Part shown: positions 9,804 to 64,000 of the stretch, piece by piece
Numbering within the stretch: the first letter of the stretch is position 1
Layout: every line of letters starts with the position of its first letter
NCBI GenBank assembly: GCA_964019335.1
Contig: OZ025725.1
Span: 310,001 to 374,000, forward strand
Source of the DNA: Diplonema japonicum
Taxonomy: Eukaryota; Protista; Euglenozoa: Diplonemea
Direction: 5' to 3'
DNA length: 64,000 nucleotides
Program-made: the position numbers and the translations under genes
Notes under the pieces: model-generated
The model's database searches: none
Told to the model about the DNA's origin: nothing
What the model saw: the letters and a program-made list of their open reading frames with translations, nothing else

Positions 9804-10234
9804 ATGGATCGCTTGAAAGTGATAGCGTTGGTGGTGGGAATAGTGAGTATGATGGTCTGGATGTTCCAGGTGGTAGCCCTGGCGGACGATAAGGGGTACG
9901 TGGAGTGGAATTCAAGATGCGGCAGTGGCATGATGCTGAACTCTTGTGGGGATAAGTCCCTCAGGGAAAGCTCCTGCAAGGAGGTAGCTGATCACGCCAA
10001 GGCCGCAGCTGCCTTTGGTGTTCTGACTATTCTGCTCCTCTCGGTTACCTGGATCACGCATACCTTGCTGGCTGTTCCTGTTATCAACAAGATGCTGATG
10101 GCAAGAAATGGCTTCAAGCAGTTTACTATGAACCATCTTTGGATTTTGCATCTTGTCGCTTCGCTTTTTCTGTTCATCACGTGGTGCACGCTGACCGGGC
10201 TTTACTATAGAGAGGTATAATATATATATATATA

Positions 10235-10274
<40 letters not shown>

Positions 10275-10507
10275 TATAGTTCTGCGGTGAGAAGATTAAG
10301 GATCTTGCCACGCTTCAGCATGGGTTTGCGTTTCTCATTATAAACAATGTGGTGGAGGTGGCGCTGGCGGTTACCTGCCTTCGGGGGTTGCATATTGGGG
10401 CTTCGGCCAACGCCGGGGAGAAAACCCCTCCTTCAACACCCCCTCCTGCCGACGAGAGGGGGCATACCCCTCAGAAGGCGTACGGAAACCCCTTGGCCTA
10501 TGACTGA
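9804..10507 (+). CDS. Amastin-like tetraspan surface protein; exons 9804-10214, 10280-10507
   Basis: C..C extracellular loop, AAAAFGVL, W....LYYRE|FCG....GFAFLI. Removing GT..AG intron 10215-10279 (phase 0) restores the fourth TM helix. Confidence 0.75.
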
Positions 10508-17419: not shown

Positions 17420-19555
17420 ATGCGAAGGAAAAGCCCAGATGAGATCCCAAAAGAGTTCTTACGGACAAAGGTGGATAGGTGGGGTCTGTCGAGCAAAGCA
17501 CTAGGCAGGGGCGCGGGGGGTGAGGTCGTCCTCGGCATGGACACCGAGAGCGGCGGCATGGTGGCCGTGAAAAAACTCATGATCGCAGGGCTCAGCGGAG
17601 AACGAAGCGTGAAGCTGCTCTCCGAGATAGAACTCCTAAAGGGCCTGGCCCACGAGAACATCGTCCAGTACATCGGCTCGAAACGCACACAGCGCAACCT
17701 ATACGTAGTAATGGGGTACATGGACAAGGGGAGCGTGGCCGACCTTGTAAAAAAATATAAAAAACTCCCAGAGGACCTGGCAATGAGAATTTTCAGAGAA
17801 GCTCTTCACGGTCTAGACTACCTCCACAGAGAGGGAATTGTACACCGTGACATAAAAGGCGGGAACATTTTATGCTGCACAACAGGAGGCGTTCGCCTGG
17901 CTGACTTCGGTGTCTCCGAGCTTCGCGTTCCTGAAAACGACAGCATAGATGTTGCAGGCACCCCATACTGGATGGCACCAGAGGTCGTCGAGGTAAAAAG
18001 CGCATGTCCAGGATCTGATATATGGGGCCTCGGATGTACATTGTGCGAAATGTTAACAGGACACCCTCCTTACGGAAAGCTGCCGCCTTACACTGCTTTG
18101 TATCGGGTGGTACAGGACGACTGCCCACCGCTTCCTCCGTTTGCAACATTGTCGATAAAAAACCTGTTGAAACAGTGTTTTATAAAAGATGTTAAAGTAA
18201 GGCCCACGGCGCCCATGTTGCTTCTGGACCGTGCGGTGTACTCCTTGTCTGTCGGGCAGGTCGATTTCACAATTTTGGAGGCGTTCCACGAAACATCAAA
18301 AATATTAAATAAAACACACGGTGCATACCCAACCACAACAGACGTTCTGCGGTATATTAAAATCTCGTCAAAGGATGATCTTGCCCGTGTGAACCCCATC
18401 CCGGAACTTGTGAAACTGATACACAGTGAGACAGACGAGGATGTACTTGAAGAATCGGTAATGTTGCTTGGTAAACTGTGGCGGGACCCGTCTCGTTCTT
18501 CTGCAGGTGTGGAGTACTGGTGTGATGATGCCTTTGTGTCCACGTGCTGCGCGATTATCGAGAAGGTTAAAATGTCCCCCGAGGCGCAAGCCATCTCTGT
18601 TTCCCTTCTTATAGACCTTCTTGACGGGCTTCCTCACTGGTCCGTCGCGTTGCGCCGTGAGCTTCTCTTCTCCCTCTCATCTTACGTGCCCATCGAGGTT
18701 GTGTATAACCCCTCGTGGATCACGCCCATTTTAGATATTCTCTCTTCTTCCTTCGCTGTCTCGCCGCCTGACTATGAGATTCTCCTTGAGAGGCTTTTCA
18801 ATGCGTATCGGTCGTGTGGGGACGTGTGGTGTATCACGTCGTTGGTGCAGCTTATTCGGTTAGACCCTGTCAAAGCGTGCTTGGTTGTGAAGGACATCGT
18901 TTGGTGCTTGACCTGCAAGAAGGAGGACAACACAACTGACCCCGGTTTCACCCTTGCGATGCTCCCTGTGCTGTTGGAGATTTGTTTGGTGGTGGAGGAT
19001 GAGGTATTTATAATTTAAGAAAAAAAAAAAAAAAAAATTGCAGAATTTGAAAACGGCATGTTTCAAGACATACATTGCTCTGCTTAAAGACAACACAAAA
19101 CCTGAGGTTCAGGAAATGTGTCTCATGCATTTGGCCGCGTGGTATGTGTTTTTTTTTGGGGGGGGAAAAAAAATGGTCTCCCAAAAAAAAACAGGACTTT
19201 AAGTCGCGACCCTTACCTAGAGAAAAACCTTGTGGGTGAATTGCGGGGTATTACAGAGGTTATGTGCCAGTGCGGGGGCTATGGGGATCCTTTTCATGAG
19301 GAAGTCATGCTGAGACACTTTCTGAAGCTTCTGAAGACGGATTTTGTAAAGGAGAAATGGATGCTCGGCGTCTCAGAGGAGGTTTTGAGCTGGCTGCGAC
19401 AGTTATTGCTTGGTACCAGACCGTCGTTGGTCATGCTCGCCTTGTCCCTGTTGCAGGTTATCTTGGACATTGGTTCGATAGAGGACAAGAAGGCCCCAGC
19501 ACTTTATTCTGCCACTAAGAAATTGTCGAAAAGCAGGTTTGCTGGGGGGAATCGA

Positions 19556-19594
<39 letters not shown>

Positions 19595-19689
19595 GGAACC
19601 CCGAAATCGCTAAGCCTTCAATTGCTCTCCTTGCCTCCGTTTGGCCGCTTAAACCTAAAAAGCGGTTTGCTTACATCAGGTTTAAAAAG

Positions 19690-29758: not shown

Positions 29759-31923
29759 ATGCTGAAAACCATAGAGAGGTGCACGGAGGAGCACCCCGCA
29801 ACGCATCTCGGCGGTGTTGGATACCCCAGCAACAGGGCAGTGGGCATAGGGACGCTAGTAGATTACCTGGACCCCATCATGAACATAGAAGAGGTTCGAA
29901 AAGAACTGGTCAAGGGAACCGTCAAAACAAGACAACTGCCCTTAGTCCCGTACGCAGGCCTCACACGGGTGGTGTTCATGAAAAGAGGTTCCATGGACTG
30001 GATGGCCCGCCACCCCGAGGCCGGCGACAAGTTCGGCAGCACAAAGGAAGGCGAGGCCTTCATCCTCCGCGCCAACAGCGGCGCCATGGTGATGGAAAAA
30101 ACCGGCGATGACACTTTCAAGTCAGGCGGCAGAATGCACTGCTTTGACATATGGCTGAAGGACCCTAACATCTCAACCCACACGGCGCCTCTCGTCGACA
30201 CTTACAAATCACACGAAATGCCCACCAAGCAAGGCCCAGGCTGGACCGCCACCGTCATAGCCGGTGTCTACAGCGACAAGGACAACCGTCCTGGCGTGGA
30301 CCTAGGCCCCACGCGTATCATCGATTTCTGCATCCTCGGGAGGAAAGGCCTCGTGTACAAAGTACCCAGCAACTACAATGTCGTTGTTTATGTGTACGAG
30401 GGCGAGCTCGAGTTCCAGAACAGCATGCAGATCAAGCGGCAGGGTACTGTCGTCGTCTTCGAACGCAAGGGAGGTGATGTCATCGAGGCATGGGCAAAAG
30501 GCGGTGATGCAGGATCTGAAGCAAGGTTCCTGCTAGTGGCCTCGGAACCTCTCGGTGAAGGATTCGAACGCAGCGAAGAAGTACCCTCGATAGTGGGGAT
30601 GAACACACAGACCGTCACAGACTTCTGTAGATCGGAAGGCTTCGTTGACGGTGTTGACGAACACGCCCTGGCACTCAAACAGCTGGAAGAAGAACAAGCG
30701 GAACACCTAGACCTCTCACACTTCTCACCCACCTCGCGTGACGATGACCGCAGGAGGTCATCCAGCGTCAACTACACAGCACAAGACCTCGCGACCCCCA
30801 TGGAGCCGCGCAGGGTCACCACCAGAGAACGCGGCGTCGCATCGCAGCGTTCAGTGACATCACCTAAAGAACCCATCAACCTGAAAGGCCGTGGGAAGGT
30901 GGCCACTATGGAGGATATGCGGAAGAAAAGGTCTCAGAAAGAGGATCCATTAGAGGCCACCGTGACATACACAGGAGGTGTGGGGCTGGGAAGCTCATCG
31001 CGAGCTGGCTCGCCTTACCACAGGAAGAGGAACTCGGGAGGGTTCAGTTCAAACACAACAGCCACCACGTCCCCGACATCCCCTGTTCTGTCGCCGTCTG
31101 CGTCGCCCGGAAGGTTTAGAAGGATCCCATCTGTCGTGGCACCACCATCTGATGCATTAAGCTTTTCAGCGAGGAGCTTCAAACTGTCAGAAAGCACGAG
31201 TTCGCTGTCCTCGAAGACGAGGACGAAGACGGAACCTGGAAGGGTCTCATTCTCAGAGATACCTGTGCCGCAGGACGTGCGCAGCCCCTCTAGAAGGCGG
31301 GCTTCGTGCGATACCAGCCCCGAGCGCAAGAAGACAGAAGAGCCGCGTCGGCGGTTTTCTTACGCACCCACTGCATCTGCGCACGATGACGGCATGGCAC
31401 CACCGCCTGTGAGATTTAAGATTAAAGGGTCGTCCTACGAGCTGAAGGAGAGGCTTATCAATCTGGTAAAGCTGAAGAACGAAGGGACGCCCAATCTAAA
31501 TAGCGCCATTGCTGAGACGCAGGTACAGCTGGACAAGGCACGGGAGAGGGAGGCGCTGACGGATAAGAGGTACCGAAGGGAGGGAAAAAAAAGAAAAAAA
31601 TACAGAGACCTTGCGGAAATGGAGATAGAGATGCAGCGGTACGAGAAGGAGTGGAGAGGGTACCACCACTACTGGGCGACGCATCTGAATAAGATGTACT
31701 CTGCGATACAAGAGCGGCCCACTGCGGAACTGAAGAAAGAGTACCGGGTTAAGTCAGCAGATTTTCAGAAACAGGTACTTAAAAAAAAAAAAAAAAAACA
31801 CACACACAGCTTTCTGAATACCAGAAGCGTCGGAAGGTGTACGAATCGATGTGTGGCTCGCTTAAGGACCCTATGTCCTCTGCCTCTTCGAGCTCTTCTG
31901 TGGGGCCGAATGTTTTGTTCTAA
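29759..31923 (+). CDS. Pirin-like bicupin + Ser-rich linker + coiled-coil protein; introns 31775-31809 and probably 31570-31605
   Basis: DYLDPIM, FDIWLKDP, VIAGVY, YNVVVYVYEGE, ARFLLVASEPLGE; last exon LSEYQKRRKVY is homologous to that of the paralog. Confidence 0.8.
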
Positions 31924-34274: not shown

Positions 34275-35549
34275 ATGTCAGGGTCAGGACGTCTGCTCTC
34301 CCGCTACATCGAGGGCAGCGTGGAGAGAAACTGCGGTGGTGCGGGTTTCAAAACCTTCAGGGTCATGGGTGAAGGCACCAACATCGACTTCCTCGACCCC
34401 TTCATCCAGGTCGACGAGATCAAGAGAAGGTTCCAACAACGCGACGCCACCCCACTCCCCTGGACTCCCTACGTGGGCATGACAAGGTTATACTACATTA
34501 TAGCAGGTGGGATACTATGGACGGGAAGACACCCCAGCAAAGGCGACAAACAAGGCGAAACACATAAAGGCGATGTGTTCGCCCTCCATGCCCGATCAGG
34601 TGCATTGATAGAGGAAACCGCATCAGCTGCGATCTACACTAAAGGAGGCCTTCTCCACGCCTTTGAAATCTGGGTGAAGGAGCCCGAATGTTTCTCCCAT
34701 TCCGATCCCTTAATAGATAACTACTCCTCAAGAGAACTACCCAAATCCGAGGGCGACGGGTGGACAGCAAAGGTAATATACGGAACCTTCGCAATCGACG
34801 GTACAGAGACACCAGCAGTAGAGACAACCTCACCATGCAATATTATAGATTTTGCGATTTTCGGGGGGAAGACGATCGAGTACGAGGTACCGGAAGAGTG
34901 GAACGCTGCGGTTTATGTGTATGAGGGAGAGGCAGAATTGCAAAGCAACATGCAAATTGTCGGGGAGGGCTCGATGGCGATTTATGAACGCAAAGGCACC
35001 ACGATAGAAATATGGGCCAAGGGAGGCGAGGCCGGCGCAATAACAAGATGCTTACTTTTCTGCGGAAAGCCTCTGAGAGAGGCAATGGAGCGCAGCGGAA
35101 CTACAATCGCTTCGTGGGCGAACGAAATCGACAAAATTAAAATGTCTGAAGATTTTAGAGACGCATTCCACAACATCGAGATGCTTAAGGCTGAACCCAA
35201 CGAACAGGGTGTCCGGGTTTCTTGCGATGATGTCCAAACACCCCGCCTTCCGTCCGGAAATTGCGGATTTGAAACTTTCAGAAATATTGTTTCAAAGCCA
35301 TCGGATGCTCTTAAAGAACAAGACCTCAAAGCACGCATTGACAACTTGACGGCTTTGAAACAAAAAGGCACACCTGGTCTCGAGCTTGCAATCGCCTCCA
35401 CCCGCAAGGAACTCAAAGAGTACCAAGCTTCGAGAAAAAGCAGCGCCCAACCTAGCAAACCGGGCCAGCTGGAAACAAATCTTGACCAGGAGATGGCACA
35501 GTACGAGGCACAATGGAAACAGTATTCTACTAAGTGGACTGCTTATTTA

Positions 35550-35611
<62 letters not shown>

Positions 35612-35885
35612 GTGTGCAGCAACTTCACGGAAAGATCCACACCACCCCAAACGACCTATCTCTTCGGGAGCAGTATAAGACGAAACACGCAGAATATAGT
35701 AAACAGGTTTGTGTTTTTTTTTTTTTCTTTCTTTTATATTAACACAGCTGGAGTTGTATAATAAGAAGGTTTCGATTTACAACCATAACAAAGCTCAGCA
35801 GAAGCAGGCTGCCGCAGCAAAGCAGGAGATTCATGGGGTGGGAAGGCCACAAGGCCGCCTCGATTTGGTACTGGAGGACAATTAG
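34275..35885 (+). CDS. Pirin-like bicupin + coiled-coil protein (paralog); exons 34275-35552, 35620-35706, 35748-35885
   Basis: CGGAGFKTFRV, DFLDPFI, WNAAVYVYEGE, LLFCGKPLRE. Two phase-0 GT..AG introns restore alignment to the 29759 paralog. Confidence 0.8.
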
Positions 35886-36440: not shown

Positions 36441-37115
36441 ATGCAAAAGGCTATCGCAGCACTGATGATGGTTGCGGCCGTGTCGGCCCAGGACAAGGTT
36501 GTGGTGAACTTCTACGGGGAGTCCCTCTGACCCGGGTGCGATGCGGCCGTGAAGGGCCCCATCAACAGCACACTGTCTGCTGAGGGCATCTTTACGATCA
36601 TGGACTTCACCTACTACCCCTTCGGGAACGCTTACGTAAAGGTCGCTGAGTGCAACGGCAACCAGGGGTTCCAGTGCTGGAACGAGAAGTGCGGTGCAGG
36701 TGTGACCAGCCCCCCCAGCGACTGCTACACTGGTGACATCGTGTGCCAGCACGGGAACGGGGAGTGCTACGGGAACCTTGTTGAGACATGTGTGAAGAAC
36801 GCTACAAAGGAGGACGCTTCCAAGTACATGCCCTTTGTGTACTGCTTCGAGGCTAGCGGTGACGCCTCGCCTGCACTCCTCAACAAGTGTGCTCCTATGT
36901 TCGGGCTGAACCCCCAGGTCATCAGCAGCTGTGCTGCCGGCCCCAGCGGGAAGGCCCTCATGGCCAAGGACGCCAAGGCCACCGCAATGGTGCAGGGCCG
37001 TGACTACGTCCCTTACATCACAGTGAACGGGAAGGTTCTCCAGGACACGAGCCTCCTGCTGTACACAATCTGCTACGACTACAAGGGCACAAAGCCCTCC
37101 GGCTGCCCTTTCTAA
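36441..37115 (+). CDS. GILT-family thiol reductase with in-frame TGA (36528-36530) in a UxxC motif; probable selenoprotein
   Basis: MQKAIAALMMVAAVSAQ signal peptide, VVVNFYGESL-TGA-PGC, YYPFGNA, CQHGNGECYGNLVETC GILT signature, YVPYITVNG. Confidence 0.85.
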
Positions 37116-37176
37116 GTTTGACGAGGGGAAAAAGTTTTTTTGTGTGACACCAGCGTGATGTGAAACACCCCTTGTT

Positions 37177-37208
<32 letters not shown>

Positions 37209-37651
37209 CTCGGAAAATTTCACCCTCTCGCAGTTTAGTCGTTGGGCCTGCCTTTTAAATATTTTACTGCTTTTTTCCTGCTCTTTTTTTTTTTTTTTTT
37301 TTTTGTCGCCAGAACTGCCTGTACCCTGTGATGCACCCCGCCGTTTCCAACCAGCCGTTCAAAAGGGTCGAACACTGTGAAAAAGAAAGAAAAAGGTATC
37401 CTCTTTTTATTTTCACGCGAACCCTTTGCTGGTCCAGGTGTGGGTGAGGAGGGACGAATGGTTTTTTTCTATTGTCAAAAAAAAAAAAAAAAAAAAAAAA
37501 AAAAGCATGGAGGTCGTATCTTACAAGGGCAACTCCAGACTAAAGGAGGGGGTCGACACCCGATTTTCTTTCATCTTTTTTATTTTTTTTATTTTTTTTA
37601 CAGTAATTACTTCAAACAAGGTTTACACACACAAAAAAAAAAAAAAAGATA

Positions 37652-38197
37652 ATGACGCATCTCTGTGGGGAAGAAAGCAAGCGCTTCGTGCAGGAAATCG
37701 GGGGGAAGGATAAACTCGTTTCTATGTGCAACAGGTTCTACCAGAAGTTTTTTATCGACAGCCACCTGGACCAGTTCATGTTCGATAAAACCGAGCCCCA
37801 CGGCCAGAGGCTGGGGCTGTGGATGGCTGAAAAAATGACAGGTGAGAGGTCATGGAGCCTTATAAGACACAGAGATTCGAGGTCAATGGCCCATGCAAAA
37901 GCATGGAGCTGCCCGAAGCGACAGGAAAGGGACATCGGCCGCAGATTTAAACTCCCTGACTGCCGTGTGTGGATGCGCTTGATGTTCTGGGCCGCCAGGG
38001 AGGAGGGCCTGGACAAGCACGAAAAGTTTTTCCGATTCTTCTACAAGTTCATCCAGTCCTTTATCGGGGTCTACGAAAGAACGGCGCCCCCTTACACCCG
38101 CGATTCGATGGAGTGGTCCTTAAGCCACAAGGAGGTCGATACCTACATTAGGGACGGCAGGGTAATGAAAGATGTACTCGGGTTGCATGTTCGGTGA
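37652..38197 (+). CDS. Truncated (2/2) globin-like protein, copy 1
   Basis: IGG....MCNRFY..FF.DSHLDQF, LWMAEKMTG, AH, RF..PDCRVWM pattern. Confidence 0.7.
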   Translation: MTHLCGEESKRFVQEIGGKDKLVSMCNRFYQKFFIDSHLDQFMFDKTEPHGQRLGLWMAEKMTGERSWSLIRHRDSRSMAHAKAWSCPKRQERDIGRRFKLPDCRVWMRLMFWAAREEGLDKHEKFFRFFYKFIQSFIGVYERTAPPYTRDSMEWSLSHKEVDTYIRDGRVMKDVLGLHVR

Positions 38198-44221: not shown

Positions 44222-44874
44222 ATGGCATTCACCCTTCCGCCTCTTCCCTACCCGCTTGACGCCCTCGCCGGGCACGGGATCTCGAAGGAGCAGATCGACT
44301 TCCACTACAACAAGCACCACAAGGGGTACGTCACGAAGCTGAATGCAGCTGCCGAGAAGACCCCTGAGCTGAAGGAGAAGACCATCGAGCAGCTCATCAA
44401 GGAGAAGGCGCCTGTGTTCAACCTCGCCGCGCAGATCTGGAACCACACCTTTTACTGGAACTGCATGTATGTGGTTTTCGTTTTTTTCTTCTTTTTTTCT
44501 TTTTTTTTTTTTTTTTTTTTTTTTGCAACCACCCCTCCCTCAGGTCGCCCAACGGTGGTGGTGCTCCCACCGGTGCCATTGCTGAGGCCATCAACAAGGA
44601 CTTCGGCAGCTTTGACAAGATGAAGGAGGAGTTCTCCGCGGCTGCTGCTGGCCACTTCGGGAGCGGCTGGGCGTGGCTGGTGAAGGATGGCGACAAGCTG
44701 AAGGTGCACCAGACACACGATGCTGGGTGCCCCCTTGCCGATGGCCTGAAGCCCATCCTCACCTGTGACGTGTGGGAGCACGCCTTCTACATCGACTACA
44801 GGAACGACAAGGCCGCCTACGTGCAGAGCTTCTGGAAGACCGTCAACTGGGACTTCGTCAACAGCCAGCTCTGA
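44222..44874 (+). CDS. sodB: Iron superoxide dismutase, copy 1 (no targeting signal); intron 44467-44543
   Basis: [37 protein letters not shown]; splicing gives NCM|SP. Confidence 0.92.
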
Positions 44875-44983
44875 GCATTTCTTTTTTTTTTTTTTTTTGA
44901 ACGTTTTTTTCTCTTAACCCTTTTAGAAACACCCTATTGCCCGCACTGACTGACCGAATTGAAATTAACATTCCCCCTACCCT

Positions 44984-45220: not shown

Positions 45221-45869
45221 ATGGCCTTCACCCTTCCGCCTCTTCCCTACCCGCTTGACGCCCTCGCCGGGCACGGGATCTCGAAGGAGCAGATCGACTT
45301 CCACTACAACAAGCACCACAAGGGGTACGTCACGAAGCTGAATGCAGCTGCCGAGAAGACCCCTGAGCTGAAGGAGAAGACCATCGAGCAGCTCATCAAG
45401 GAGAAGGCGCCTGTGTTCAACCTCGCCGCGCAGATCTGGAACCACACCTTTTACTGGAACTGCATGTATGTGGTTTTCGTCTTTTTCTTTTTTTTTTTTT
45501 CCTACAATCACCTCCCTCAGGTCGCCCAACGGTGGTGGTGCTCCCACCGGTGCCATTGCTGAGGCCTTCAACAAGGACTTCGGCAGCTTTGACAAGATGA
45601 AGGCTGAGTTCTCCGCGGCTGCTGCTGGCCACTTCGGGAGCGGCTGGGCATGGCTGGTGAAGGATGGCGACAAGCTGAAGGTGCACCAGACACACGATGC
45701 TGGGTGCCCCCTTGCCGATGGCCTGAAGCCCATCCTCACCTGTGACGTGTGGGAGCACGCCTTCTACATCGACTACAGGAACGACAAGGCCGCCTACGTG
45801 CAGAGCTTCTGGAAGACCGTCAACTGGGACTTCGTCAACAGCCAGTACCAACGGGCGTCTAAACTGTAA
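45221..45869 (+). CDS. sodB: Iron superoxide dismutase, copy 2 with C-terminal PTS1 (-SKL); intron 45466-45520
   Basis: Near-identical to copy 1 but ends [10 protein letters not shown]. Confidence 0.92.
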
Positions 45870-46145: not shown

Positions 46146-48585
46146 ATGTCGCAAGCACTGCAGTTCATCAACAAGCAGGTCGGTGAGTTCGACGAGAAGT
46201 ACGCGAAGACGTCTCCCGCAAAGATGGTTGCCGCTTCGGTGTCCGCTGCCTACATTGCCTCGCAGCTCTTCGTGCTGTACCAGATGGGTGCCACGGACGT
46301 CGTGGATTCTACAAAGTCCACCTTCTTCTTCTACCTTCGGAAGTACTTCGGGCACCTCCTCGGCTACACGAAGGGCATCAACGAGGCCAAAATGGGTTTC
46401 CTGAAGGAGTTCACTGAGAAGCAGGAGTCGATCGAGGAGGTGCAGGAGGAGCTCCCCGAGAAATCAATCTCCAAGGAAGAGGTCCTCGCCCTCTGCAAGA
46501 AGCACGCTGAGATCAACATGGACTACTCCAAGGGCCAGTACAGCGGTAGCGTCTACCACGGTGGGATGGAGGGCTACACAGAGTTCATCAACGAAGCTAT
46601 GGCGATGCACCAGTGGTCGAACCCCCTGCACGCGGGACAGTTCTGCGGTGTGAGGAAGATGGAGACAGAGGTTCTGTCGATGGTGGTGAAGATGTTCAAC
46701 GGGACGGACGAGTGCTGCGGGGCGATGACCTCTGGGGGCACCGAGTCCATCCTCCTCTCCATGAAGGCCTACAGGGAGCTCGCTAGGATCGAGAAGGGGA
46801 TCACAAAGCCGGAGCTTGTTGTCTGCGCGACGGCCCACGCCGCCTTCGATAAGTCCGCGCACTACTTCGGTCTGAAGATCAGGCACGCCAGGATGGACCC
46901 TGTGAGCGGGAAGGTGGACATGAAGCACATGAGGAGCCTCATCACCTCGAACACCATCTGCCTCGTCGGGTCTGCGTACGGGTTCCCCCACGGGATCATC
47001 GACCCTATCGAGGAGATCGCGGCGATCGGGGTGGCGAAGAACATCCCGGTCCACGTGGATGCGTGCCTCGGGGGCTTCATCCTCGCCTTCGCGGAGAAGG
47101 CAGGGTTCGAAGTTGGTGAGAAGTTCGACTTCAGGGTCCCGGGGGTCACCTCCATCTCCTGCGACACACACAAGTACGGGTTCGCACCCAAAGGGAGCAG
47201 CACAATCCTGTACAGGACACCGGAGCTGAGGAGGCATCAGATGCACTCGGCACCGAACTGGCCCGGTGGGATCTACGCCTCGCCCACCATCAGCGGGTCG
47301 CGTGTCGGGAACGTGGTGGCGGGGACATGGGCGGCGATGATGTCGCACGGGCTGGAGGGGTACGTGAAGTCCGCGAAGGAGATCATCACATCTGCAAGGT
47401 TCATCAAGGAGGAGCTGAACAAGACCCCCGGTATGCGCGTGATGGGCGACCCCCTGGGCAGCGTCATCGGCTTCGCAAGCGACGACTTCGACATCTACAG
47501 GCTGGCGGGACACCTCGCGGAGAAGGGGTGGGAGCTCAACAGCCTGCAGTTCCCCCCATCGATGCACATCTGCTGCACGAGGCTGCACGCCATCAACGAC
47601 ATGGAGAACTCGAAGAGGCTCATCGCTGACATCAGGGAAGGCTGTGCAGAGTTCATGAAGACCAAGGACAAGCCCGCCACAGGCTCCGCCGCCTTGTACG
47701 GAACCACACAAGAGATCCCCGACAGGTCCATCATCGGTGATGTTGCCACCACTTACTTCGATGCCTACTACGATGTCAAGGGAGCGGTATGTGACTTTTT
47801 GCTTGAACAAAAAACAATAATGAGCTCGTCCGGAAAAAAATGTTAACACTTTTTTGGGCACCTCCGAAAATTTCTTTGTTTTGATTATTTGAGCAAAAAA
47901 AGGGCAGCATGCAACCATAGGAAGATGACATATATGGTGTACATGACGCCGTTCAATTGCGATGCTTGTTTTGCCATGAGGGTGGCAGGCTTTGCAACCG
48001 GCTGCCCCCGGGAAGCGAAAAACAGAGGTCAGAAAAACGACGAAAAATGTTTAAAATGCAGTTTAAAAGTTTAAAAGCTTGAAATGCAGCACCTTTTCCC
48101 CACCCCATTTTAATAGTGATAAAGAAACCACCCGAAATGACCCCTTAAGTTTCAGATTTCCCATCTGCGTCCATTTCTTCATTGAAGAAAACAAAAATAA
48201 ATATGGAGCCTGGGTCACTTACAATTTCCGGATGCAAAAAACTTAAAAAAAACCATTTTAAAAAGCATGTTTTTGCACGCGCGTTTTAAAAATGAAACAA
48301 ACGGCGCGCATTGTGACCTATATGGTGAACACACTTAGACCGCAATTCTGCACACAAAGTGGTGTCGGACTACTTTTGTACTTAGAAATTTTCCGAGGAT
48401 TTTCCGTTGCGAAAGAGGGTCATTTGTGGGCATTTTCTTCCGGACGAACTCATATATTGATAATGAATTGTTGTTGCTTGGTTAACCCCCGGCTGTGCAC
48501 AAACAACAAACAACTGAATATTCTCTTTTTTTTTTTTTTTAATACACAGGACACTCTTCGCAAGATGCAGGAAGCATCGCAGTAA
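46146..48585 (+). CDS. Sphingosine-1-phosphate lyase, copy 1; exons 46146-47786, 48550-48585
   Basis: SGSVYHGG, NPLH, TSGGTESIL, HVDACLGGF, SCDTHKYG (PLP Lys), WPGGIYASPT. Last exon DTLRKMQEASQ matches the paralogs' DTLRKMQEEAA. Confidence 0.9.
47822..48451. mobile_element. Internally deleted copy of the GAG...CTC TIR element, inside the SPL intron
   Basis: GAGCTCGTCCGGA ... TCCGGACGAACTC; colinear with 40422-41451 minus about 400 nt. Confidence 0.8.
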
Positions 48586-49726: not shown

Positions 49727-51458
49727 ATGTCGGCCATTATGAACACAGCGATGACGGCAGTTGCCGGGTGGGTGAAGGGGTTCAACGAGCGCTACGAGGG
49801 GACAGCCCCGCACGTGCTGGTGGTGGGGACGCTGGTGTGTGTTGTGGTGGGAGACCGCGTGGTGCAGGTGCTGCGGGTGGGCCCTGCTGACAGCTTCGAG
49901 TACACGAAGGAGGTGTTCTTCCTGTACCTGCGAAGGTACTTCGGGCACCTCCTCGGCTACACGAAGGGCATCAACGATGCGAAGATCGGGTTCCTGAAGG
50001 AGTTCACTGAGAAGCAGGAGTCGATCGAGGAGGTGCAGGAGGAGCTCCCTGAGAACTCGATCCCGAAGGCAGAGGTCCTCGCCCTCTGCAAGAAGCACGC
50101 CGAGATCAACATGGACTTCATGAAGGGCCAGTACAGCGGCAGCATCTACCACGGTGGGATGGAGGGCTACACAGAGTTCATCAACGAAGCTATGGCGATG
50201 CACCAGTGGTCGAACCCCCTGCACGCGGGACAGTTCTGCGGTGTGAGGAAGATGGAGACAGAGGTTCTGTCGATGGTGGTGAAGATGTTCAACGGGACGG
50301 ACGAGTGCTGCGGGGCGATGACCTCTGGGGGCACCGAGTCCATCCTCCTCTCCATGAAGGCCTACAGGGAGCTCGCTAGGATCGAGAAGGGGATCACAAA
50401 GCCGGAGCTTGTTGTCTGCGCGACGGCCCACGCCGCCTTCGATAAGGCCGCGCACTACTTCGGTCTGAAGATCAGGCACGCCAGGATGGACCCTGTGAGC
50501 GGGAAGGTGGACATGAAGCACATGAGGAGCCTCATCACCTCGAACACCATCTGCCTCGTCGGGTCTGCGTACGGGTTCCCCCACGGGATCATCGACCCCA
50601 TTCAGGAGATCGCGGCGATCGGGAAGGCTAAGAACATCCCGGTCCACGTGGATGCGTGCCTCGGGGGCTTCATCCTCGCCTTCGCGGAGAAGGCAGGGTT
50701 CGACGTGGAGGAGGTGTTCGACTTCAGGGTCCCGGGGGTCACCTCCATCTCCTGCGACACACACAAGTACGGGTTCGCACCCAAAGGGAGCAGCACAATC
50801 CTGTACAGAACACCGGAGCTGAGGAAGCACCAGATGCACTCGCAGCCGAACTGGCCCGGTGGGATCTACGCCTCGCCCACCATCAGCGGGTCGCGTGTCG
50901 GGAACGTGGTGGCGGGGACATGGGCGGCGATGATGTCGCACGGGCTGGAGGGGTACGTGCAGTCGACGAAGGAGATTGTCGGGGCGGCGAGGTTCATCGC
51001 TAAAGAGATCGAGGCGACCCCTGGGATGCGTCTCATGGGGAGGCCCCTGGGCAGCGTCATCGGCTTCGCAAGCGACGACTTCGACATCTACAGGCTGGCG
51101 GGACACCTCGCGGAGAAGGGGTGGGAGATGAACAGCCTGCAGTTCCCCCCATCGATGCACATCTGCTGCACGAGGCTGCACGCCATCAACGACATGGAGA
51201 ACTCGAAGAGGCTCATCGCTGACATCAGGGAAGGCTGTGCAGAGTTCATGAAGACCAAGGACAAGCCCGCCACAGGCTCCGCCGCCTTGTACGGAACCAC
51301 ACAAGAGATCCCCGACAGGTCCATCATCGGTGATGTTGCCAAGACTTACTTCGATGCCTACTACGATGTCCGTGGGAAGGTAGTGTTCATTTCTTTCCCC
51401 CTTCTCTTTACACAATTCACAGGACACCCTTCGCAAGATGCAGGAAGAGGCCGCCTGA
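49727..51458 (+). CDS. Sphingosine-1-phosphate lyase, copy 2; intron 51380-51422
   Basis: Same motifs; N-terminal TM; spliced end ...VRGK|DTLRKMQEEAA*. Confidence 0.9.
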
Positions 51459-52319
51459 GAAAAGCAGTTACAAACATATTAGTGACCCTTTTTTTTTTTT
51501 TTTATTATTATTATTATTGATACCGATATCGATTTCCGTTTTTGTTTTGGCCCAAAATTTGTACCGGCGTGTGTCTGGAGTGATACCAGAGCTAGAGAGT
51601 AAATGACTTGATTACTTGTGCTATCTGGGATCGATATTGTTCATAAATTAACTATTAAGCTCGTCACTTGTTGTGTTATCCACTATTCTCCTGCATTTTT
51701 TTTTTTTTTTTAATATTTTCCCTCTCGTTTTCCCGTTCGCTTTCAAACACTGTTCTTTGACATTCTCTCTCTCTCTCTCTTCTCTTTTTTTTTTTTTTTC
51801 CTTCTTTTTTTTTTTTTTTTTTCCTTCCCAGGAATTTTGACAAAGTAGTCCGCGTGTGGCCTTGTGTTCCTGTTATTTCGCAGCAAGTGAAAAAGCCTTT
51901 TTTTTTCCCCCCCTCTTTTCCGAGTAAAAAAAAAAATCGCTTCGGTATCTTGTTATTATTATTATTTTTTTTTTTTTTTTTTGGAAATTCAGCTCTAAAG
52001 ACATGTGATAAAATGAGTTAGGGAAATGCAAGAAAAAAAAAAAAAGAGAAACAAAAAAAAAAACGTTTTTTTTTTTTTTTTTTTTCCCACTTTTTTTTTT
52101 TTTTTTTAATTGGAGCTAAATGGCTTTATGCCAAAAAAAAAAGAAAAAAAGAAATGTAAGAAAAAACAAAACAAAAAAACGAAAAAAAGAACAGCACATC
52201 CCCCCCCCCCCCCCCCCCCCCCTCCCACCTTTTCCTTGCTCGTTTTTTTCTTCTTTACCTCCCCTCCATTTTTTTCTTTCTTTTCTTCTCACCAAAATAC
52301 AGTTCACCAAAAAAAAGGG

Positions 52320-52347
<28 letters not shown>

Positions 52348-52351
<4 letters not shown>

Positions 52352-52826
52352 ATATCGTGGTCAGCATAGAATGTTTTGGTGACATTACAGTGGACATAGA
52401 TATGAACGATACTGTAGGTGACCTGAAGCGAAAGGTCGGGTCAATGCGAGACATCGAGGCGTCGGTGTTGATGCTTCAACATGACGGGGAAATACTGGGG
52501 GACGAGCTACCCATGAGCGAAACGGGGGTCGGCTGCGGGGAAGTAGTCCAACTTCTCATTGCAGGGCCGCAAATTGCTATGGACGAGCTAGCCCTTCTCG
52601 GAGTGGACATCACACAAGAAGAGCTTCACCAATGTGCACAGTTGGGCAACGCTGAGGTTTTGCGTCTCCTTCTCCTTACTGAGCAGCTTGATCCGAATTT
52701 TCGCAGCATGCAGGGGATCACTCCACTAATGGCCGCGTCAGTGGTGGGCTGTCTCGAGTGCATTACTCTCCTATATGACTCTGGTGCTGACCCTGAGGTG
52801 TCGTTTATTGGTAAGGAAAGGGGAAG

Positions 52827-52858
<32 letters not shown>

Positions 52859-52946
52859 ACTCAATGCATTCGACCTAGCCTCTCATGGACGGCACACTAG
52901 CTGTATGGAGTTTTTGAAAACACATAAAAAGCGAAGGAAGATTTGA
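52348..52946 (+). CDS. Ubiquitin-like domain + ankyrin repeat protein; intron 52811-52857
   Basis: DTVGDLKRKV UBL; GITPLMAASVVGCLECITLL. Splicing yields a further ankyrin repeat G|LNAFDLASHGRHTSCMEFL. Confidence 0.8.
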
Positions 52947-55734: not shown

Positions 55735-57466
55735 ATGTCGGCCATTATAAACACAGCGATGACGGCAGTTGCCGGGTGGGTGAAGGGGTTCAACGAGCGC
55801 TACGAGGGGACAGCCCCGCACGTGCTGGTGGTGGGGACGCTGGTGTGTGTTGTGGTGGGAGACCGCGTGGTGCAGGTGCTGCGGGTGGGCCCTGCTGACA
55901 GCTTCGAGTACACGAAGGAGGTGTTCTTCCTGTACCTGCGAAGGTACTTCGGGCACCTCCTCGGCTACACGAAGGGCATCAACGATGCGAAGATCGGGTT
56001 CCTGAAGGAGTTCACTGAGAAGCAGGAGTCGATCGAGGAGGTGCAGGAGGAGCTCCCTGAGAACTCGATCCCGAAGGCAGAGGTCCTCGCCCTCTGCAAG
56101 AAGCACGCCGAGATCAACATGGACTTCATGAAGGGCCAGTACAGCGGCAGCATCTACCACGGTGGGATGGAGGGCTACACAGAGTTCATCAACGAAGCTA
56201 TGGCGATGCACCAGTGGTCGAACCCCCTGCACGCGGGACAGTTCTGCGGTGTGAGGAAGATGGAGACAGAGGTTCTGTCGATGGTGGTGAAGATGTTCAA
56301 CGGGACGGACGAGTGCTGCGGGGCGATGACCTCTGGGGGCACCGAGTCCATCCTCCTCTCCATGAAGGCCTACAGGGAGCTCGCTAGGATCGAGAAGGGG
56401 ATCACAAAGCCGGAGCTTGTTGTCTGCGCGACGGCCCACGCCGCCTTCGATAAGGCCGCGCACTACTTCGGTCTGAAGATCAGGCACGCCAGGATGGACC
56501 CTGTGAGCGGGAAGGTGGACATGAAGCACATGAGGAGCCTCATCACCTCGAACACCATCTGCCTCGTCGGGTCTGCGTACGGGTTCCCCCACGGGATCAT
56601 CGACCCCATTCAGGAGATCGCGGCGATCGGGAAGGCTAAGAACATCCCGGTCCACGTGGATGCGTGCCTCGGGGGCTTCATCCTCGCCTTCGCGGAGAAG
56701 GCAGGGTTCGACGTGGAGGAGGTGTTCGACTTCAGGGTCCCGGGGGTCACCTCCATCTCCTGCGACACACACAAGTACGGGTTCGCACCCAAAGGGAGCA
56801 GCACAATCCTGTACAGAACACCGGAGCTGAGGAAGCACCAGATGCACTCGCAGCCGAACTGGCCCGGTGGGATCTACGCCTCGCCCACCATCAGCGGGTC
56901 GCGTGTCGGGAACGTGGTGGCGGGGACATGGGCGGCGATGATGTCGCACGGGCTGGAGGGGTACGTGCAGTCGACGAAGGAGATTGTCGGGGCGGCGAGG
57001 TTCATCGCTAAAGAGATCGAGGCGACCCCTGGGATGCGTCTCATGGGGAGGCCCCTGGGCAGCGTCATCGGCTTCGCAAGCGACGACTTCGACATCTACA
57101 GGCTGGCGGGACACCTCGCGGAGAAGGGGTGGGAGATGAACAGCCTGCAGTTCCCCCCATCGATGCACATCTGCTGCACGAGGCTGCACGCCATCAACGA
57201 CATGGAGAACTCGAAGAGGCTCATCGCTGACATCAGGGAAGGCTGTGCAGAGTTCATGAAGACCAAGGACAAGCCCGCCACAGGCTCCGCCGCCTTGTAC
57301 GGAACCACACAAGAGATCCCCGACAGGTCCATCATCGGTGATGTTGCCAAGACTTACTTCGATGCCTACTACGATGTCCGTGGGAAGGTAGTGTTCATTT
57401 CTTTCCCCCTTCTCTTTACACAATTCACAGGACACCCTTCGCAAGATGCAGGAAGAGGCCGCCTGA
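55735..57466 (+). CDS. Sphingosine-1-phosphate lyase, copy 3; intron 57388-57430
   Basis: Essentially identical to copy 2 (offset 6008 nt); M5I is the only protein difference I saw. Confidence 0.9.
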
Positions 57467-58265
57467 GAAAGCCTAAACCCCCCACTAAAAGAATCTCGGG
57501 GGAGAAAAAAAAAAAAAAAACGAATAAGGTAGAATTTATTTTCGCAACGTGGGACCCAATGCAATGTGATGCTAAAAAAAGAAATAAATTCTTCCTTTTT
57601 TCATTTATTTAGTTCCCCCCCCCCCCCTCTCATTTATATTTCCCCCCTTCCCTTATGTAATAGCGCGTGGTTGTATTCAAAAAAAAAGTTATTTCCGCAA
57701 CATGAGGAACATGGGAATAAGTAACTCGTTATCCCCCCCGTCCCTCTATTTGTTGCATCATTGGAACAAGAATTTAAAAAAAAAAAAGAGAGAGAAATGT
57801 GATCCAGTTTCATTTCTATGTGGTATTTCCCCCCCCATTTTATTTTTCATTTCTCTTCTGCGGAGATATAAAGCAAAATGAATCCAGAAAGAAAATGCCG
57901 AATGGAAAATATTTTAAAAGAAAATCTGTACCATGGATTCCCGGAAAATAATATTTTATTCCTCTCGTCTCCCTTCTTTTCGCTGATGGTGTCGTTGCTG
58001 TTACGCACCTCTTCCGTCATAGCGGAAGAAGAAGAAAGAAAAAAAAAAAAATGAAGGGTTTTCCTCACTACCCTTCTGTACCTGTTTACTATTTGCCGTC
58101 CTAGTTTTTTTTTTTTTTTTTTTTTTTTTTTTCTTTTTTTCGTACACGTTTTTTTTATTTTTATATTTTTTTATCCCTCTTTCTCCTTTTTTTTTTTTTT
58201 TTTCTCTTTTTTTTCCCCCCTCTCCGATTTTTACCTAGCTGCCTTAAGGGAAGTGGCAACAACAC

Positions 58266-58951: not shown

Positions 58952-59686
58952 ATGGCGATGATGATACACATACGGTACCAAGGGGAGCTGCGGGGGGTGG
59001 AGGTGGGGGTGGATGACACCGTGGGACACCTCAAAGAGAAGATAGGGAAGATCGTGGAGGCCGACGTGAAAATGCTGAAGGTGTCCTTCGACGGCACGGA
59101 GCTAAGGGACGACGAGGCAGGGGTAGGCGAGGTAGGGGTCGCCTCAGAGGACGTCATAGATGTAGACATCGTGTTCGGCTGGGTTCAGGTAGACAACGGC
59201 GTACTGGTCACCAACAAGGGCATGACGTGTGCAGTGGTGCATGAAGACGTGGTGGACTACCACACAGTCCTGGCGAATGTAGTCAACACATCAGGGTGCC
59301 TGTCATGGGGCATCAAAGTCCACTGCGCCCGGCACTGTTGCTTCGGAGTCGCGGAACACGGGACAGTCGACCCCATGGCAAGCACGCTCTTGTGGGGATC
59401 TTGGTTCGGCTGGCTCACTACAGAGCGCATCCTTTCCTGGTGCAACAACGGGTCCATTGACCAGCTCCTCACCTCTGCGAATCACGTTGAGTACGGGCAC
59501 AGGGCTACCTTTTCCGATGGTGATACGCTCTTCTTTCGTCTCGACCGCGATGCCGGCACCCTCAGCATGCATCGTAACGAGACGTATGTCCACACTGTGG
59601 TGGACATCGCACCTCATGTCCCGCTTGTTCCTTTCTGTTGGATGGACTATAAGGGGGAGTCCGTCACTCTTGTGAACGCGCCTTGA
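58952..59686 (+). CDS. Ubiquitin-like domain + SPRY/B30.2-like domain protein
   Basis: DTVGHLKEKI UBL; SGCLSWGIKV..CCFGV, FSDGDTLFFRLDRDAGTLSMHRN SPRY-like strands. Confidence 0.75.
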   Translation: MAMMIHIRYQGELRGVEVGVDDTVGHLKEKIGKIVEADVKMLKVSFDGTELRDDEAGVGEVGVASEDVIDVDIVFGWVQVDNGVLVTNKGMTCAVVHEDVVDYHTVLANVVNTSGCLSWGIKVHCARHCCFGVAEHGTVDPMASTLLWGSWFGWLTTERILSWCNNGSIDQLLTSANHVEYGHRATFSDGDTLFFRLDRDAGTLSMHRNETYVHTVVDIAPHVPLVPFCWMDYKGESVTLVNAP

Positions 59687-59722: not shown

Positions 59723-59769
59723 GGGCTGGTAATTTGGGTTGGAATTAATCAAAATAATCGCAATCAAAG

Positions 59770-61291
<1,522 letters not shown>

Positions 61292-61292
61292 A

Positions 61293-64000
61293 ACATGTAC
61301 GTCGACAGTGAACGTGGCCTCCCTACGCAACCAAATAGAGGAGGTTACGACGAAGCTGGACGTCGACGTGATCTGCACGCAGGAGACGGCGCTGACCTTA
61401 GCTGGGCAGCAGGAGATGGAGCGGGAGCTCGGGAAGAAGACGAAGAAGAAGTGGAAGCCGATGTGGGGACCGCCGCAGCCGGGAAGGAAGGTGGAGGGAA
61501 TCGCTTCGAACTGGGTAGCGCAGAGGGGAGGACTGGCAACCCTAATCCGAGAACCCAGGACAGCATTGCCAGGTTCTCTGGACACCAACGACCAATCTGA
61601 AGAACAACGCAGGAGGTGGCTGCACACTCAGGTCGCAATCGATGGCAAACGCAGATGGCTACATATCATATCGATATACTGCCCGGCAGGAACAGGACGT
61701 GAAGAGACCGCAAAGAGGGAGACCCTCCTCCACTACATCCTGCGGAAGAAGGCGAAAGAGCTCGGCAATGTGCCAATACTCGTCGTTGGCGACTTCAACA
61801 CCGACGAGGCAAGATCCCCGGAACTGCGGAAGGCACTGCAGGCAGGATGGGCGGACACAGCGGACCTATGCGCAAAATGGAGAGGGAAACAACCTGATCC
61901 AACGTTTGTACGGGAGAACTGCGCCACGCGGATCGACAGGATACTGGCAAGTCCGGAGGCAGTACCGGCCATCACCGGATGCCAAGTGAACCAAGCGATC
62001 AAGGGGACGAATCACCGGACACTGACGGTTGCGCTTGAGCTCGACAGATTCAGGATGACGGTACAACGATACATGCTGCCGAGGGGTCTGGAGACGGCAG
62101 ATGAGCCAACGGAAGAACAAGGAGCCGAAGCAGTGGAAGCAGCCGGATTCCGACAGTACCTGCACGAAGGAAATATAACAAAAGCCTTCGAGACCCTCTC
62201 CCGGTGCACCGAAGACCTCCTCATAGACCAACCAGTGGGGACGCCGGGGAGGGCAGCGTACGTCGGAAGAGGCAAACACACCAGCACAAAGGAGAAGGAA
62301 GTGTGTGCACCAACGACGACGGGAACGGTGGGTGCAGCTACAACGTGGCAAGCGCGACTGGAAAAGCTGAAGCTCAAGACGCGGACACTGCAACAACAGC
62401 TCGAGCAAGCAGTTGAGGACAAGGGGCTAAGCAAGCCGACCCTGAACACGATAAGAAACGTGAACAGGGAAGCAATGGCTCTGGCAGTTCCATCTGAACC
62501 GGTGCCGCACGACGCTGTTCTCATAGAGGACATGCTGGCAGCAGCGCTGAACATGGAAGACGCAATTGCAGCTGAGGAACGGAAGAAAAGGACCGAGGCG
62601 AACACGTCACGGAGACGAGAATACCTGGCCGAGGTTGCAGCAGGACGCGAGACAACAAGACTGGTAAAAGTCGCGAGAGGCAAACGTCAAAGCGACGGAA
62701 CCAGGGCGGTCAAGGAAGGGATGGTGCTCTTTGCGTCCCCCGGACTGATCGACAGCGTCATGCGCAAGGCGTGGAAGACCGTCTTTGCGAAATACGAGTC
62801 CCGACCGGAGCCCCTCTATGCCCCCTTCAAGGCAAAGTACAGCAAGTTCGTGCAACGGCATGAGATGGAGAGGACACAACTGACGGGAGCAAGGCTGAGG
62901 GAAGTGCTCAGAAAGAAAAGCAAGAAAAGCGCGGCAGGCATCGACGGGTGGAGGATGCTAGAGCTACGGAAACTACCAGAGTCAGTACTAGACGCCTGGG
63001 CGATGCTCTTCCATGCGATCGAAGCAACGGGGAGGTGGCCGGAAGCCATGAAAACGGCACTGGTTACCCTCGTACCGAAGTGCGACGATGCGGGACCACT
63101 GGAGCACAGGCCTATCACAGTCACATCTGCGGTGTACAGACTCTGGGCATGCGCGCGACTGTCTGATATCCTCATCTGGCAGGAGAAATGGATACACGAC
63201 AAGCAATACGGATTCCGCACTGGTTTCGGGACAGAGGACGCACTTTTGGACCTCGCCCTTGACATCGAAGAATCCATTCTGGAGGGGAAACCGCTAGTCG
63301 GGGTGGCACTCGACTTTGCGAAATGCTTTGACAGTGTACCGCAACAGCTGGTTCTGGAGCTGGTGGAGGACATGGGCATGGACACAGGCATCCTCAGGGC
63401 ACTGAAAGGAATGTACGCAGGCATGCGGTTCAGGTACGCAGCAGGCGTGGGGGAGGAGTTCCACACAACCAATGGAATCCTTCAGGGATGCCCGATTTCA
63501 GTGGTACTCATCAACGCGCTGTTGGCGGTACTAATGAAGCAGGTGGAGAACGACACAGGGGTCCGCTCGCTGTCTTACGCGGACGATGCATACCTCTTGG
63601 CACGGCTCGGTGCGGCGTTGCAGGAAGGCGTAGACGCAGTGGAAGCCTTCTGCAAACAGGTGGGGATGAAGCTCAACACCAGGAAGACGAAGACCTTTGC
63701 AGTGAACAGGAAGACACCGGAGGTGAAGGTGAAAGGCGAGGAACTGCAGCCGACACGGACTGTAGGAGTACTGGGAGCCAAGCTGCGGACAGACGGCAGG
63801 CCGCAAACCAACGGCGACAGGACGGCGGAGGCACTCGGGACGCTGAGCAGGCTGGGAGCAACGCCGTTGTCCTTTCAGCAGAAGGCGAAGATCATCAGCA
63901 GCACGATCCTACCGAGCTGCCTCTACGACTGCCCATTCTCACCGCCGAAAACGGGACAAATGGCCACGCTGGTGAAGGAGACCACGTACGCGCTCTGGGG
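61293..64000 (+). CDS. LINE endonuclease-reverse transcriptase ORF (partial; absent from the ORF track because it has no stop in the window)
   Basis: APE motifs TVNVASL, DVICTQET, ISIYCP, VVGDFN, RIDRIL, TNH; RT motifs SAAGIDGW, RPITVTSAVYRLW, QYGFR, LDFAKCFDSV, GILQGCPIS, YADD (63576-63587). Confidence 0.92.

What the first reader, a model, noticed from the sequence alone, without database searches (positions are those of the whole stretch)
52811..52857. An all-purine GT-AG intron
Seen: GTAAGGAAAGGGGAAG(A)~30G; the only pyrimidine in 47 nt is the T of GT. Removing it converts a poly-Lys dead end into a proper ankyrin repeat (GLNAFDLASHGRHTSCMEFL). Known: U2-type acceptors usually rely on a YAG, a U2AF65-bound polypyrimidine tract and a YUNAY branch site; none is present here. 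Inference: this spliceosome defines small introns by some other rule, such as length, donor strength or homopolymer content.
Basis: partly seen in the sequence, partly recalled or inferred. Interest (0 to 1): 0.8.

Follow-up and report, generated by a model that had tools for sequence, protein, structure and literature searches.

The report
Pyrimidine-free intron in a marine flagellate
A 47-base intron in the marine flagellate Diplonema japonicum is cut out of its RNA although it is nearly all A and G and lacks the usual 3' splicing signals; it is an extreme case of this species' already published A-rich introns, whose ends are likely set by the first AG past a minimum length.

Summary
The intron is real. 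Segment 52811-52857 is 47 nt: 37 A, 9 G, 1 T. Removing it gives a 183-aa ubiquitin-like/ankyrin protein identical to a Diplonema japonicum transcriptome protein. Contigs of two public runs lack exactly these 47 bases; a third run keeps the GT.

The phenomenon is published. Thakur et al. 2025 (PMC12621601) report poly(A) at the polypyrimidine-tract position in D. japonicum, a branch motif in only 13.9% of introns, and U2AF1/2 present, but give no mechanism.

Of 13 introns I catalogued in the window (3 transcript-confirmed), 7 are A-filled and 6 pyrimidine-filled; 12 end in YAG and only this one in AAG. Two paralogues share an intron position, one filled with poly-A and one with poly-T. All 13 end at the first AG beyond 30 nt. 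Donor strength does not explain it.

Likely mechanism: the U2 spliceosome defines the short intron across its length, branches at an unconstrained A and takes the first AG; the filler is largely slippage. A positive role for poly(A) is not excluded. No earlier scan note on introns in this genome was found.

The parts
52348..52810 (+). Exon 1 coding part: ubiquitin-like domain plus ankyrin repeats (154 codons + 1 nt)
   Evidence: Pfam ubiquitin and Ank; identical to P0001
52811..52857 (+). 47-nt phase-1 GT-AG intron, all purine except the T of GT
52811..52816 (+). 5' splice site (GTAAGG), 6 of 9 matches to the textbook consensus including exon -1 G
52827..52856 (+). A30 run occupying the branch-site and pyrimidine-tract positions; likely holds the branch adenosine (inferred, not mapped)
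52855..52857 (+). AAG acceptor: the first AG beyond 16 nt from the donor; used in preference to an in-frame TAG ending at 52878
   Evidence: transcript evidence
52858..52946 (+). Exon 2 coding part: completes the last ankyrin repeat, ends at TGA
31570..31605 (+). Comparison: 36-nt A-rich intron of pirin-like gene 1, weak donor, 1 pyrimidine in -20..-4, CAG end
   Evidence: spliced product identical to D. japonicum protein P0002
31775..31809 (+). Comparison: 35-nt poly-A-filled intron of pirin-like gene 1 (A18 run)
35707..35747 (+). Comparison: 41-nt poly-T-filled predicted intron of pirin-like gene 2, same alignment column and phase as 31775-31809
   Evidence: predicted from frame and alignment; no transcript match obtained

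Best explanation
This is a real short GT-AG intron that is likely removed by the ordinary U2-type spliceosome, which likely pairs the donor with the first AG lying more than about 30 bases downstream and would branch at an adenosine without needing a consensus or a pyrimidine tract. Shown: excision of exactly these 47 nt; choice of AAG over a downstream in-frame TAG; both A-filled and T-filled introns in the same window. Inferred: U1 and U2 are bridged across the short intron (intron definition); U2AF2 binding to pyrimidines is dispensable for such introns; any suitably spaced A serves as branch point, as reported for kinetoplastid trans-splicing; the A30 arose by replication slippage and is tolerated because it adds no competing AG.
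For: Excision. First-AG pattern: in 13 of 13 catalogued introns the acceptor is the first AG ending 35 nt or more from the donor, and every skipped AG ends at 4-24 nt. Chance of such AG-free stretches over 11 non-duplicate introns is 9e-5 against noncoding background. Lengths 35-77 nt, median 47; published median 41 nt. Filler exchangeable: paralogous introns at alignment column 694, phase 0, are poly-A in one gene and poly-T in the other; two duplicate genes at 44223 and 45222 differ by 22 nt of T-rich filler (77 vs 55 nt). A and T runs of 8 or more each make up about 8% of noncoding DNA. Literature: all five U2-type snRNAs and U2AF1/2 present, YTRAY in 13.9% of D. japonicum introns (PMC12621601); kinetoplastids branch at any A upstream of the tract with no consensus (PMC9639853) and their U2 lacks the usual branch-recognition motif (PMC4950102; PMC13601561).
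Against: A-rich 3' zones exceed background: 5 of 11 non-duplicate introns have 2 or fewer pyrimidines in -20..-4 against 9.7% of noncoding 17-mers (binomial p 0.002), and A-runs fill 24% of intron bases against 8% of noncoding bases. That hints at a positive role for A, as does the species-wide A logo in PMC12621601. The catalogue is small and was picked partly by eye, so it is biased to homopolymer-rich introns. Only 3 of 13 introns are transcript-confirmed; for these alone the AG-free chance is about 0.28 (my product values), so the first-AG rule rests largely on predicted introns and is partly circular. No branch point was mapped, and the D. japonicum U2 snRNA, U2AF2 and SF1 sequences were not seen.
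Confidence: 0.6

Rival explanations
1. The poly(A) tract is a positive 3' splice-site signal in D. japonicum: a U2AF2 of altered specificity, a poly(A)-binding protein, or a U-rich branch-recognition region of U2 snRNA recognises oligo(A), giving two intron classes (A-type and pyrimidine-type).
For: Bimodal 3' composition (0-6 versus 11-13 pyrimidines in -20..-4); A enrichment over background, p 0.002; A is the top base at the PPT position species-wide; Leishmania U2 carries UUAUAA in place of GUAGUA, so euglenozoan U2 can become U-richer.
Against: The same intron position carries poly-A or poly-T in paralogues (the poly-T one is predicted). T-runs are enriched in introns too (16.5% versus 7.7%). 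Homopolymers saturate all noncoding DNA.
Confidence: 0.25
2. Splicing here is driven mainly by exon-side signals (SR-type enhancers or exon definition), with the intron interior irrelevant.
For: The interior carries almost no information. SR-domain proteins alter acceptor choice in trypanosomes (PMC9639853 passages).
Against: No direct evidence. Short, tightly sized introns are the situation in which intron definition is normally invoked (general knowledge).
Confidence: 0.1
3. The segment is not an intron: a homopolymer length error hides an in-frame lysine-rich insertion, or the stretch is an assembly artefact.
For: A-runs of 28 or 31 would restore the frame; read cover over the A-run itself was masked.
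Against: The transcript-derived protein lacks the insertion; two contigs lack exactly 47 nt while one contig of the same organism code keeps the GT; the ends are GT-AG.
Confidence: 0.02
4. It is a euglenozoan non-canonical, structure-defined intron removed without normal spliceosomal recognition.
For: Such introns dominate in hemistasiid diplonemids.
Against: Ends are GT-AG; an all-purine interior cannot pair with itself; the region folds less stably than shuffles (z +0.97, 171 of 200 shuffles fold at least as well).
Confidence: 0.03

Closest known systems
D. japonicum canonical introns with poly(A) at the polypyrimidine-tract position (Thakur et al. 2025, PMC12621601; parts 1-4 of 8 and passages read, supplements not available)
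   Same: Same species; GT-AG; short (47 nt versus median 41); A dominates the -20..-4 zone; no YTRAY (absent in about 86% of the species' introns).
   Different: The published consensus end is CAG, this one is AAG and has no pyrimidine at all. The paper's main text has no occurrence of 'AAG' and offers no mechanism beyond a flexible spliceosome.
Kinetoplastid spliced-leader trans-splicing acceptors (PMC9639853, PMC13601561, PMC4950102; passages read)
   Same: Sister lineage; no branch-point consensus; branching at any A; U2 branch-recognition motif divergent.
   Different: There the polypyrimidine tract is important and purine insertions are harmful; here a cis intron is spliced with none.
U2AF2-independent short introns of humans (SPF45/RBM17; PMC8363638, search listing only, and as cited in PMC12862383 passages)
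   Same: Short introns spliced without normal U2AF2 dependence.
   Different: Those have truncated pyrimidine tracts, not poly(A); involvement of an RBM17-like factor here is untested.
Euglena gracilis conventional introns with C-rich tracts (PMC11170887; passages read)
   Same: Euglenozoan GT-AG introns with an atypical tract composition.
   Different: C-rich pyrimidine tract and CAG, not purine.

Membership tests
U2-type spliceosomal intron | GT-AG ends | tested here: met
U2-type spliceosomal intron | Precisely removed from mRNA | tested here: met
   P0001 identical to spliced product; contigs lack 47 nt
U2-type spliceosomal intron | 5' splice site complementary to U1 | tested here: met
   6 of 9 matches to the recalled textbook consensus; the species' own U1 sequence was not seen
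U2-type spliceosomal intron | Lariat excision by U1/U2/U4/U5/U6 snRNPs | not testable with these tools
   machinery reported present in PMC12621601
Textbook (mammalian-type) 3' splice site | YAG acceptor | tested here: not met
   AAG
Textbook (mammalian-type) 3' splice site | Polypyrimidine tract | tested here: not met
   0 pyrimidines in -20..-4
Textbook (mammalian-type) 3' splice site | YTRAY/YUNAY branch motif | tested here: not met
D. japonicum poly(A)-tract canonical introns (Thakur 2025) | Species is D. japonicum | tested here: met
   two window genes identical to named D. japonicum proteins
D. japonicum poly(A)-tract canonical introns (Thakur 2025) | GT-AG, short, A most abundant in the last 20 nt | tested here: met
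   47 nt; 17 of 17 A in -20..-4
Euglenozoan non-canonical introns | Non-GT-AG ends | tested here: not met
Euglenozoan non-canonical introns | Strong pairing of intron ends | tested here: not met
   z +0.97

The most novel reading that the evidence does not exclude
D. japonicum has turned poly(A) into a positive 3' splice signal: a U-rich branch-recognition region of U2 snRNA or a re-specified U2AF2 or poly(A)-binding factor reads oligo(A), so the cell runs two acceptor codes side by side (poly-A and polypyrimidine), and this pyrimidine-free AAG intron is the pure form of the A code.
Probability: 0.2. Interest if true: 0.75.

Novelty: new member of a known kind. Interest (0 to 1): 0.38.

Why it matters
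The species-level oddity (poly(A) where the pyrimidine tract should be) is in print but unexplained. This intron is a verified limiting case with no pyrimidine, no YAG and no branch motif, so it is a minimal natural substrate for asking what a U2 spliceosome needs at the 3' end. The poly-A/poly-T pair at one paralogous position offers a natural swap control. If poly(A) proved to be actively read, it would be a second acceptor code in a U2 spliceosome.

Tried and rejected
No whole genome is held, so no genome-wide intron count and no U2 snRNA, U2AF2 or SF1 look-up; Rfam found 0 families in the window. No RNA holder is listed on record; X1 is a guess at RNA and X4 and X7 are of unknown kind. Run X2 laid 0 contigs. 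Only 4 of the 9 listed runs were laid, all as contigs, so splicing efficiency and A-run length could not be measured. An automated coding-versus-noncoding intron scan was too noisy and did not list this intron; the catalogue of 13 was made by inspection. Attempts to confirm the three introns of the kinase-like gene failed: no hit at E 1e-100 and one weak 36% hit. Donor-strength compensation rejected. Structure-defined intron rejected. Composition of trans-splice acceptors upstream of start codons was not compared with cis introns, so whether pyrimidine tracts are kept mainly for trans-splicing stays open. Supplements of PMC12621601 (logos, snRNA alignments) and Additional file 1 of PMC10161547 (splicing section) could not be read and may already show U2 branch-region sequences or AAG frequencies. 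A five-term search for adenosine-rich acceptors without a polypyrimidine tract returned 0 papers; it was narrow and does not prove absence.

Full report
Observation. The segment 52811-52857 is 47 nt with 37 A, 9 G and one T, begins GT and ends AG; its A-run is 30 long. It interrupts an ORF starting at 52348 with a ubiquitin-like domain and ankyrin repeats. Unspliced, the frame ends at 176 aa after a lysine run; spliced, it gives 183 aa, and the Pfam Ank_2 score rises from 36.6 to 69.2 bits.

Proof of splicing and species. A search with exon 1 returned 1 protein among 321 candidates, P0001, an EukProt Trinity ORF of Diplonema japonicum identical to the spliced product. Of 4 runs laid on 52345-52945, one contig each of X7 and X1 aligns to 52811 and resumes at 52866 with 7 letters between where the window has 54, so exactly 47 are missing. 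X1 is another organism code and differs at about 5% of positions, so it may be a relative's transcript or intronless DNA. A contig of X4, the same organism code as X7, aligns through 52812 and so keeps the GT; X2 laid nothing. The tool masks the A-run, lists no joint there, and does not have these runs on record as RNA, so the junction is my arithmetic on the pieces. Three equivalent 47-nt deletions exist and only this one is GT-AG. An A-run of 28 or 31 would read through in frame, but the transcript protein lacks that insertion. An in-frame TAG acceptor at 52878 exists and is not used in these three records.

Context. Noncoding DNA in the window is full of homopolymers: 121 purine runs of 25 nt or more, and A and T runs of 8 or more are each about 8% of noncoding bases. 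All-purine 43-mers are 49 of 26,519 noncoding windows; scaled to the 10,131 introns published for the species this would give roughly 19 such introns from background alone (my arithmetic, treating all introns as this length).

Other introns. By inspection I listed 13 introns. Three are confirmed by identical D. japonicum transcript proteins: this one and two in a pirin-like gene (P0002). Two more, in a pirin-like paralogue, are supported by alignment. Eight rest on frame restoration only; two searches to confirm three of them failed. Lengths are 35-77 nt. Twelve end in CAG or TAG and only this one in AAG. Seven have 0-6 pyrimidines in -20..-4 and six have 11-13; none has YTRAY. In all 13 the acceptor is the first AG ending 35 nt or more from the donor, and skipped AGs end at 4-24 nt. 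The chance over 11 introns (two paralogue duplicates dropped) is 9e-5, but about 0.28 for the three confirmed ones alone, and the predicted set is partly circular. The last introns of the two pirin-like paralogues sit at the same alignment column and phase; one is poly-A-filled, the other poly-T-filled. Donor strength is unremarkable: 6 of 9 here against 5-7 elsewhere, and the confirmed A-rich intron 31570-31605 has 5 of 9. The region has no stable fold. Against a purely neutral filler: 5 of 11 introns have 2 or fewer pyrimidines in -20..-4 against 9.7% background (p 0.002), and A-runs are 24% of intron bases, though the set is small and biased by how it was found.

What is known. Thakur et al. 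2025 (PMC12621601; parts 1-4 of 8 and passages read; supplements unavailable) report for D. japonicum 98.33% GT-AG introns, median 41 nt, A as the commonest base at the pyrimidine-tract position, YTRAY in 13.9%, CAG as the consensus end, and U2AF1/2 present. They infer a flexible spliceosome and give no mechanism. In kinetoplastids branching uses any A upstream of the tract (PMC9639853 passages), U2 lacks the usual branch motif (PMC4950102 passages) and no branch helix is resolved in cryo-EM (PMC13601561 passages). PMC10161547 (passages), PMC11613528, PMC11170887, PMC12862383, PMC10679874 and PMC13598402 were seen as passages and added context only. That short introns are defined across the intron is general knowledge, not tested here.

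Mechanism. Most likely (0.6) the U2-type spliceosome assembles across the short intron from the U1-bound donor, branches at a suitably spaced A of the run, and ligates to the first AG past a minimum length, accepting AAG because no YAG precedes it. The A30 would be slippage-derived filler that is tolerated because it adds no AG. The main rival (0.25) is that poly(A) is actively recognised. Excision, acceptor choice and the coexistence of A- and T-filled introns are shown; intron definition, branch position and U2AF2 independence are inferred.

Verdict. The class is already described for this species; this is an extreme, verified member and a useful test substrate. Names used for neighbouring genes without a database call (kinase-like, superoxide dismutase, sphingosine-1-phosphate lyase) are recalled labels. 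Interest 0.38.

Noticed in passing
window 36441-37115 (+): GILT-family thiol reductase (Pfam PF03227) with an in-frame TGA at codon 30, three residues before a Cys, i.e. at the first position of the recalled CxxC motif: candidate selenoprotein. GILT is listed among rare algal Sec proteins (PMC7539508 passage). No SECIS family matched in 37000-37700.
   Followed up: partly
window 46146-47843, 49727-51459, 55735-57467 (+): Three copies of a PLP-dependent decarboxylase-family gene (Pfam; sphingosine-1-phosphate lyase is a recalled label), 95-99% identical. Two carry the same 43-nt pyrimidine-rich predicted intron near the 3' end; the first copy diverges at that point.
   Followed up: partly
window 44223-44875 and 45222-45869 (+): Tandem superoxide-dismutase-like genes (recalled label), 95% identical, whose shared predicted intron differs in T-rich filler length, 77 versus 55 nt.
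   Followed up: partly
window 29759-31923 and 34275-35884 (+): Two pirin-like paralogues with a shared C-terminal region also present in a Flectonema neradi protein (P0003).
   Followed up: partly
window 1-59700: Recognisable genes lie on the + strand, and many start codons are directly preceded by long A-runs, in keeping with polycistronic units; not quantified.
   Followed up: no
window 59733-64000 (+): Long ORFs with a triplet-repeat block and an endonuclease-like frame from 61206, resembling a non-LTR retrotransposon (label recalled).
   Followed up: no
window 10215-10279 and 19537-19595 (+): Predicted introns with A35 and A32 runs ending in TAG; the first also has an AT dinucleotide repeat. 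Not transcript-confirmed.
   Followed up: partly
window 58952-59683 (+): A second gene with an N-terminal ubiquitin-like domain fused to an unrelated domain.
   Followed up: no
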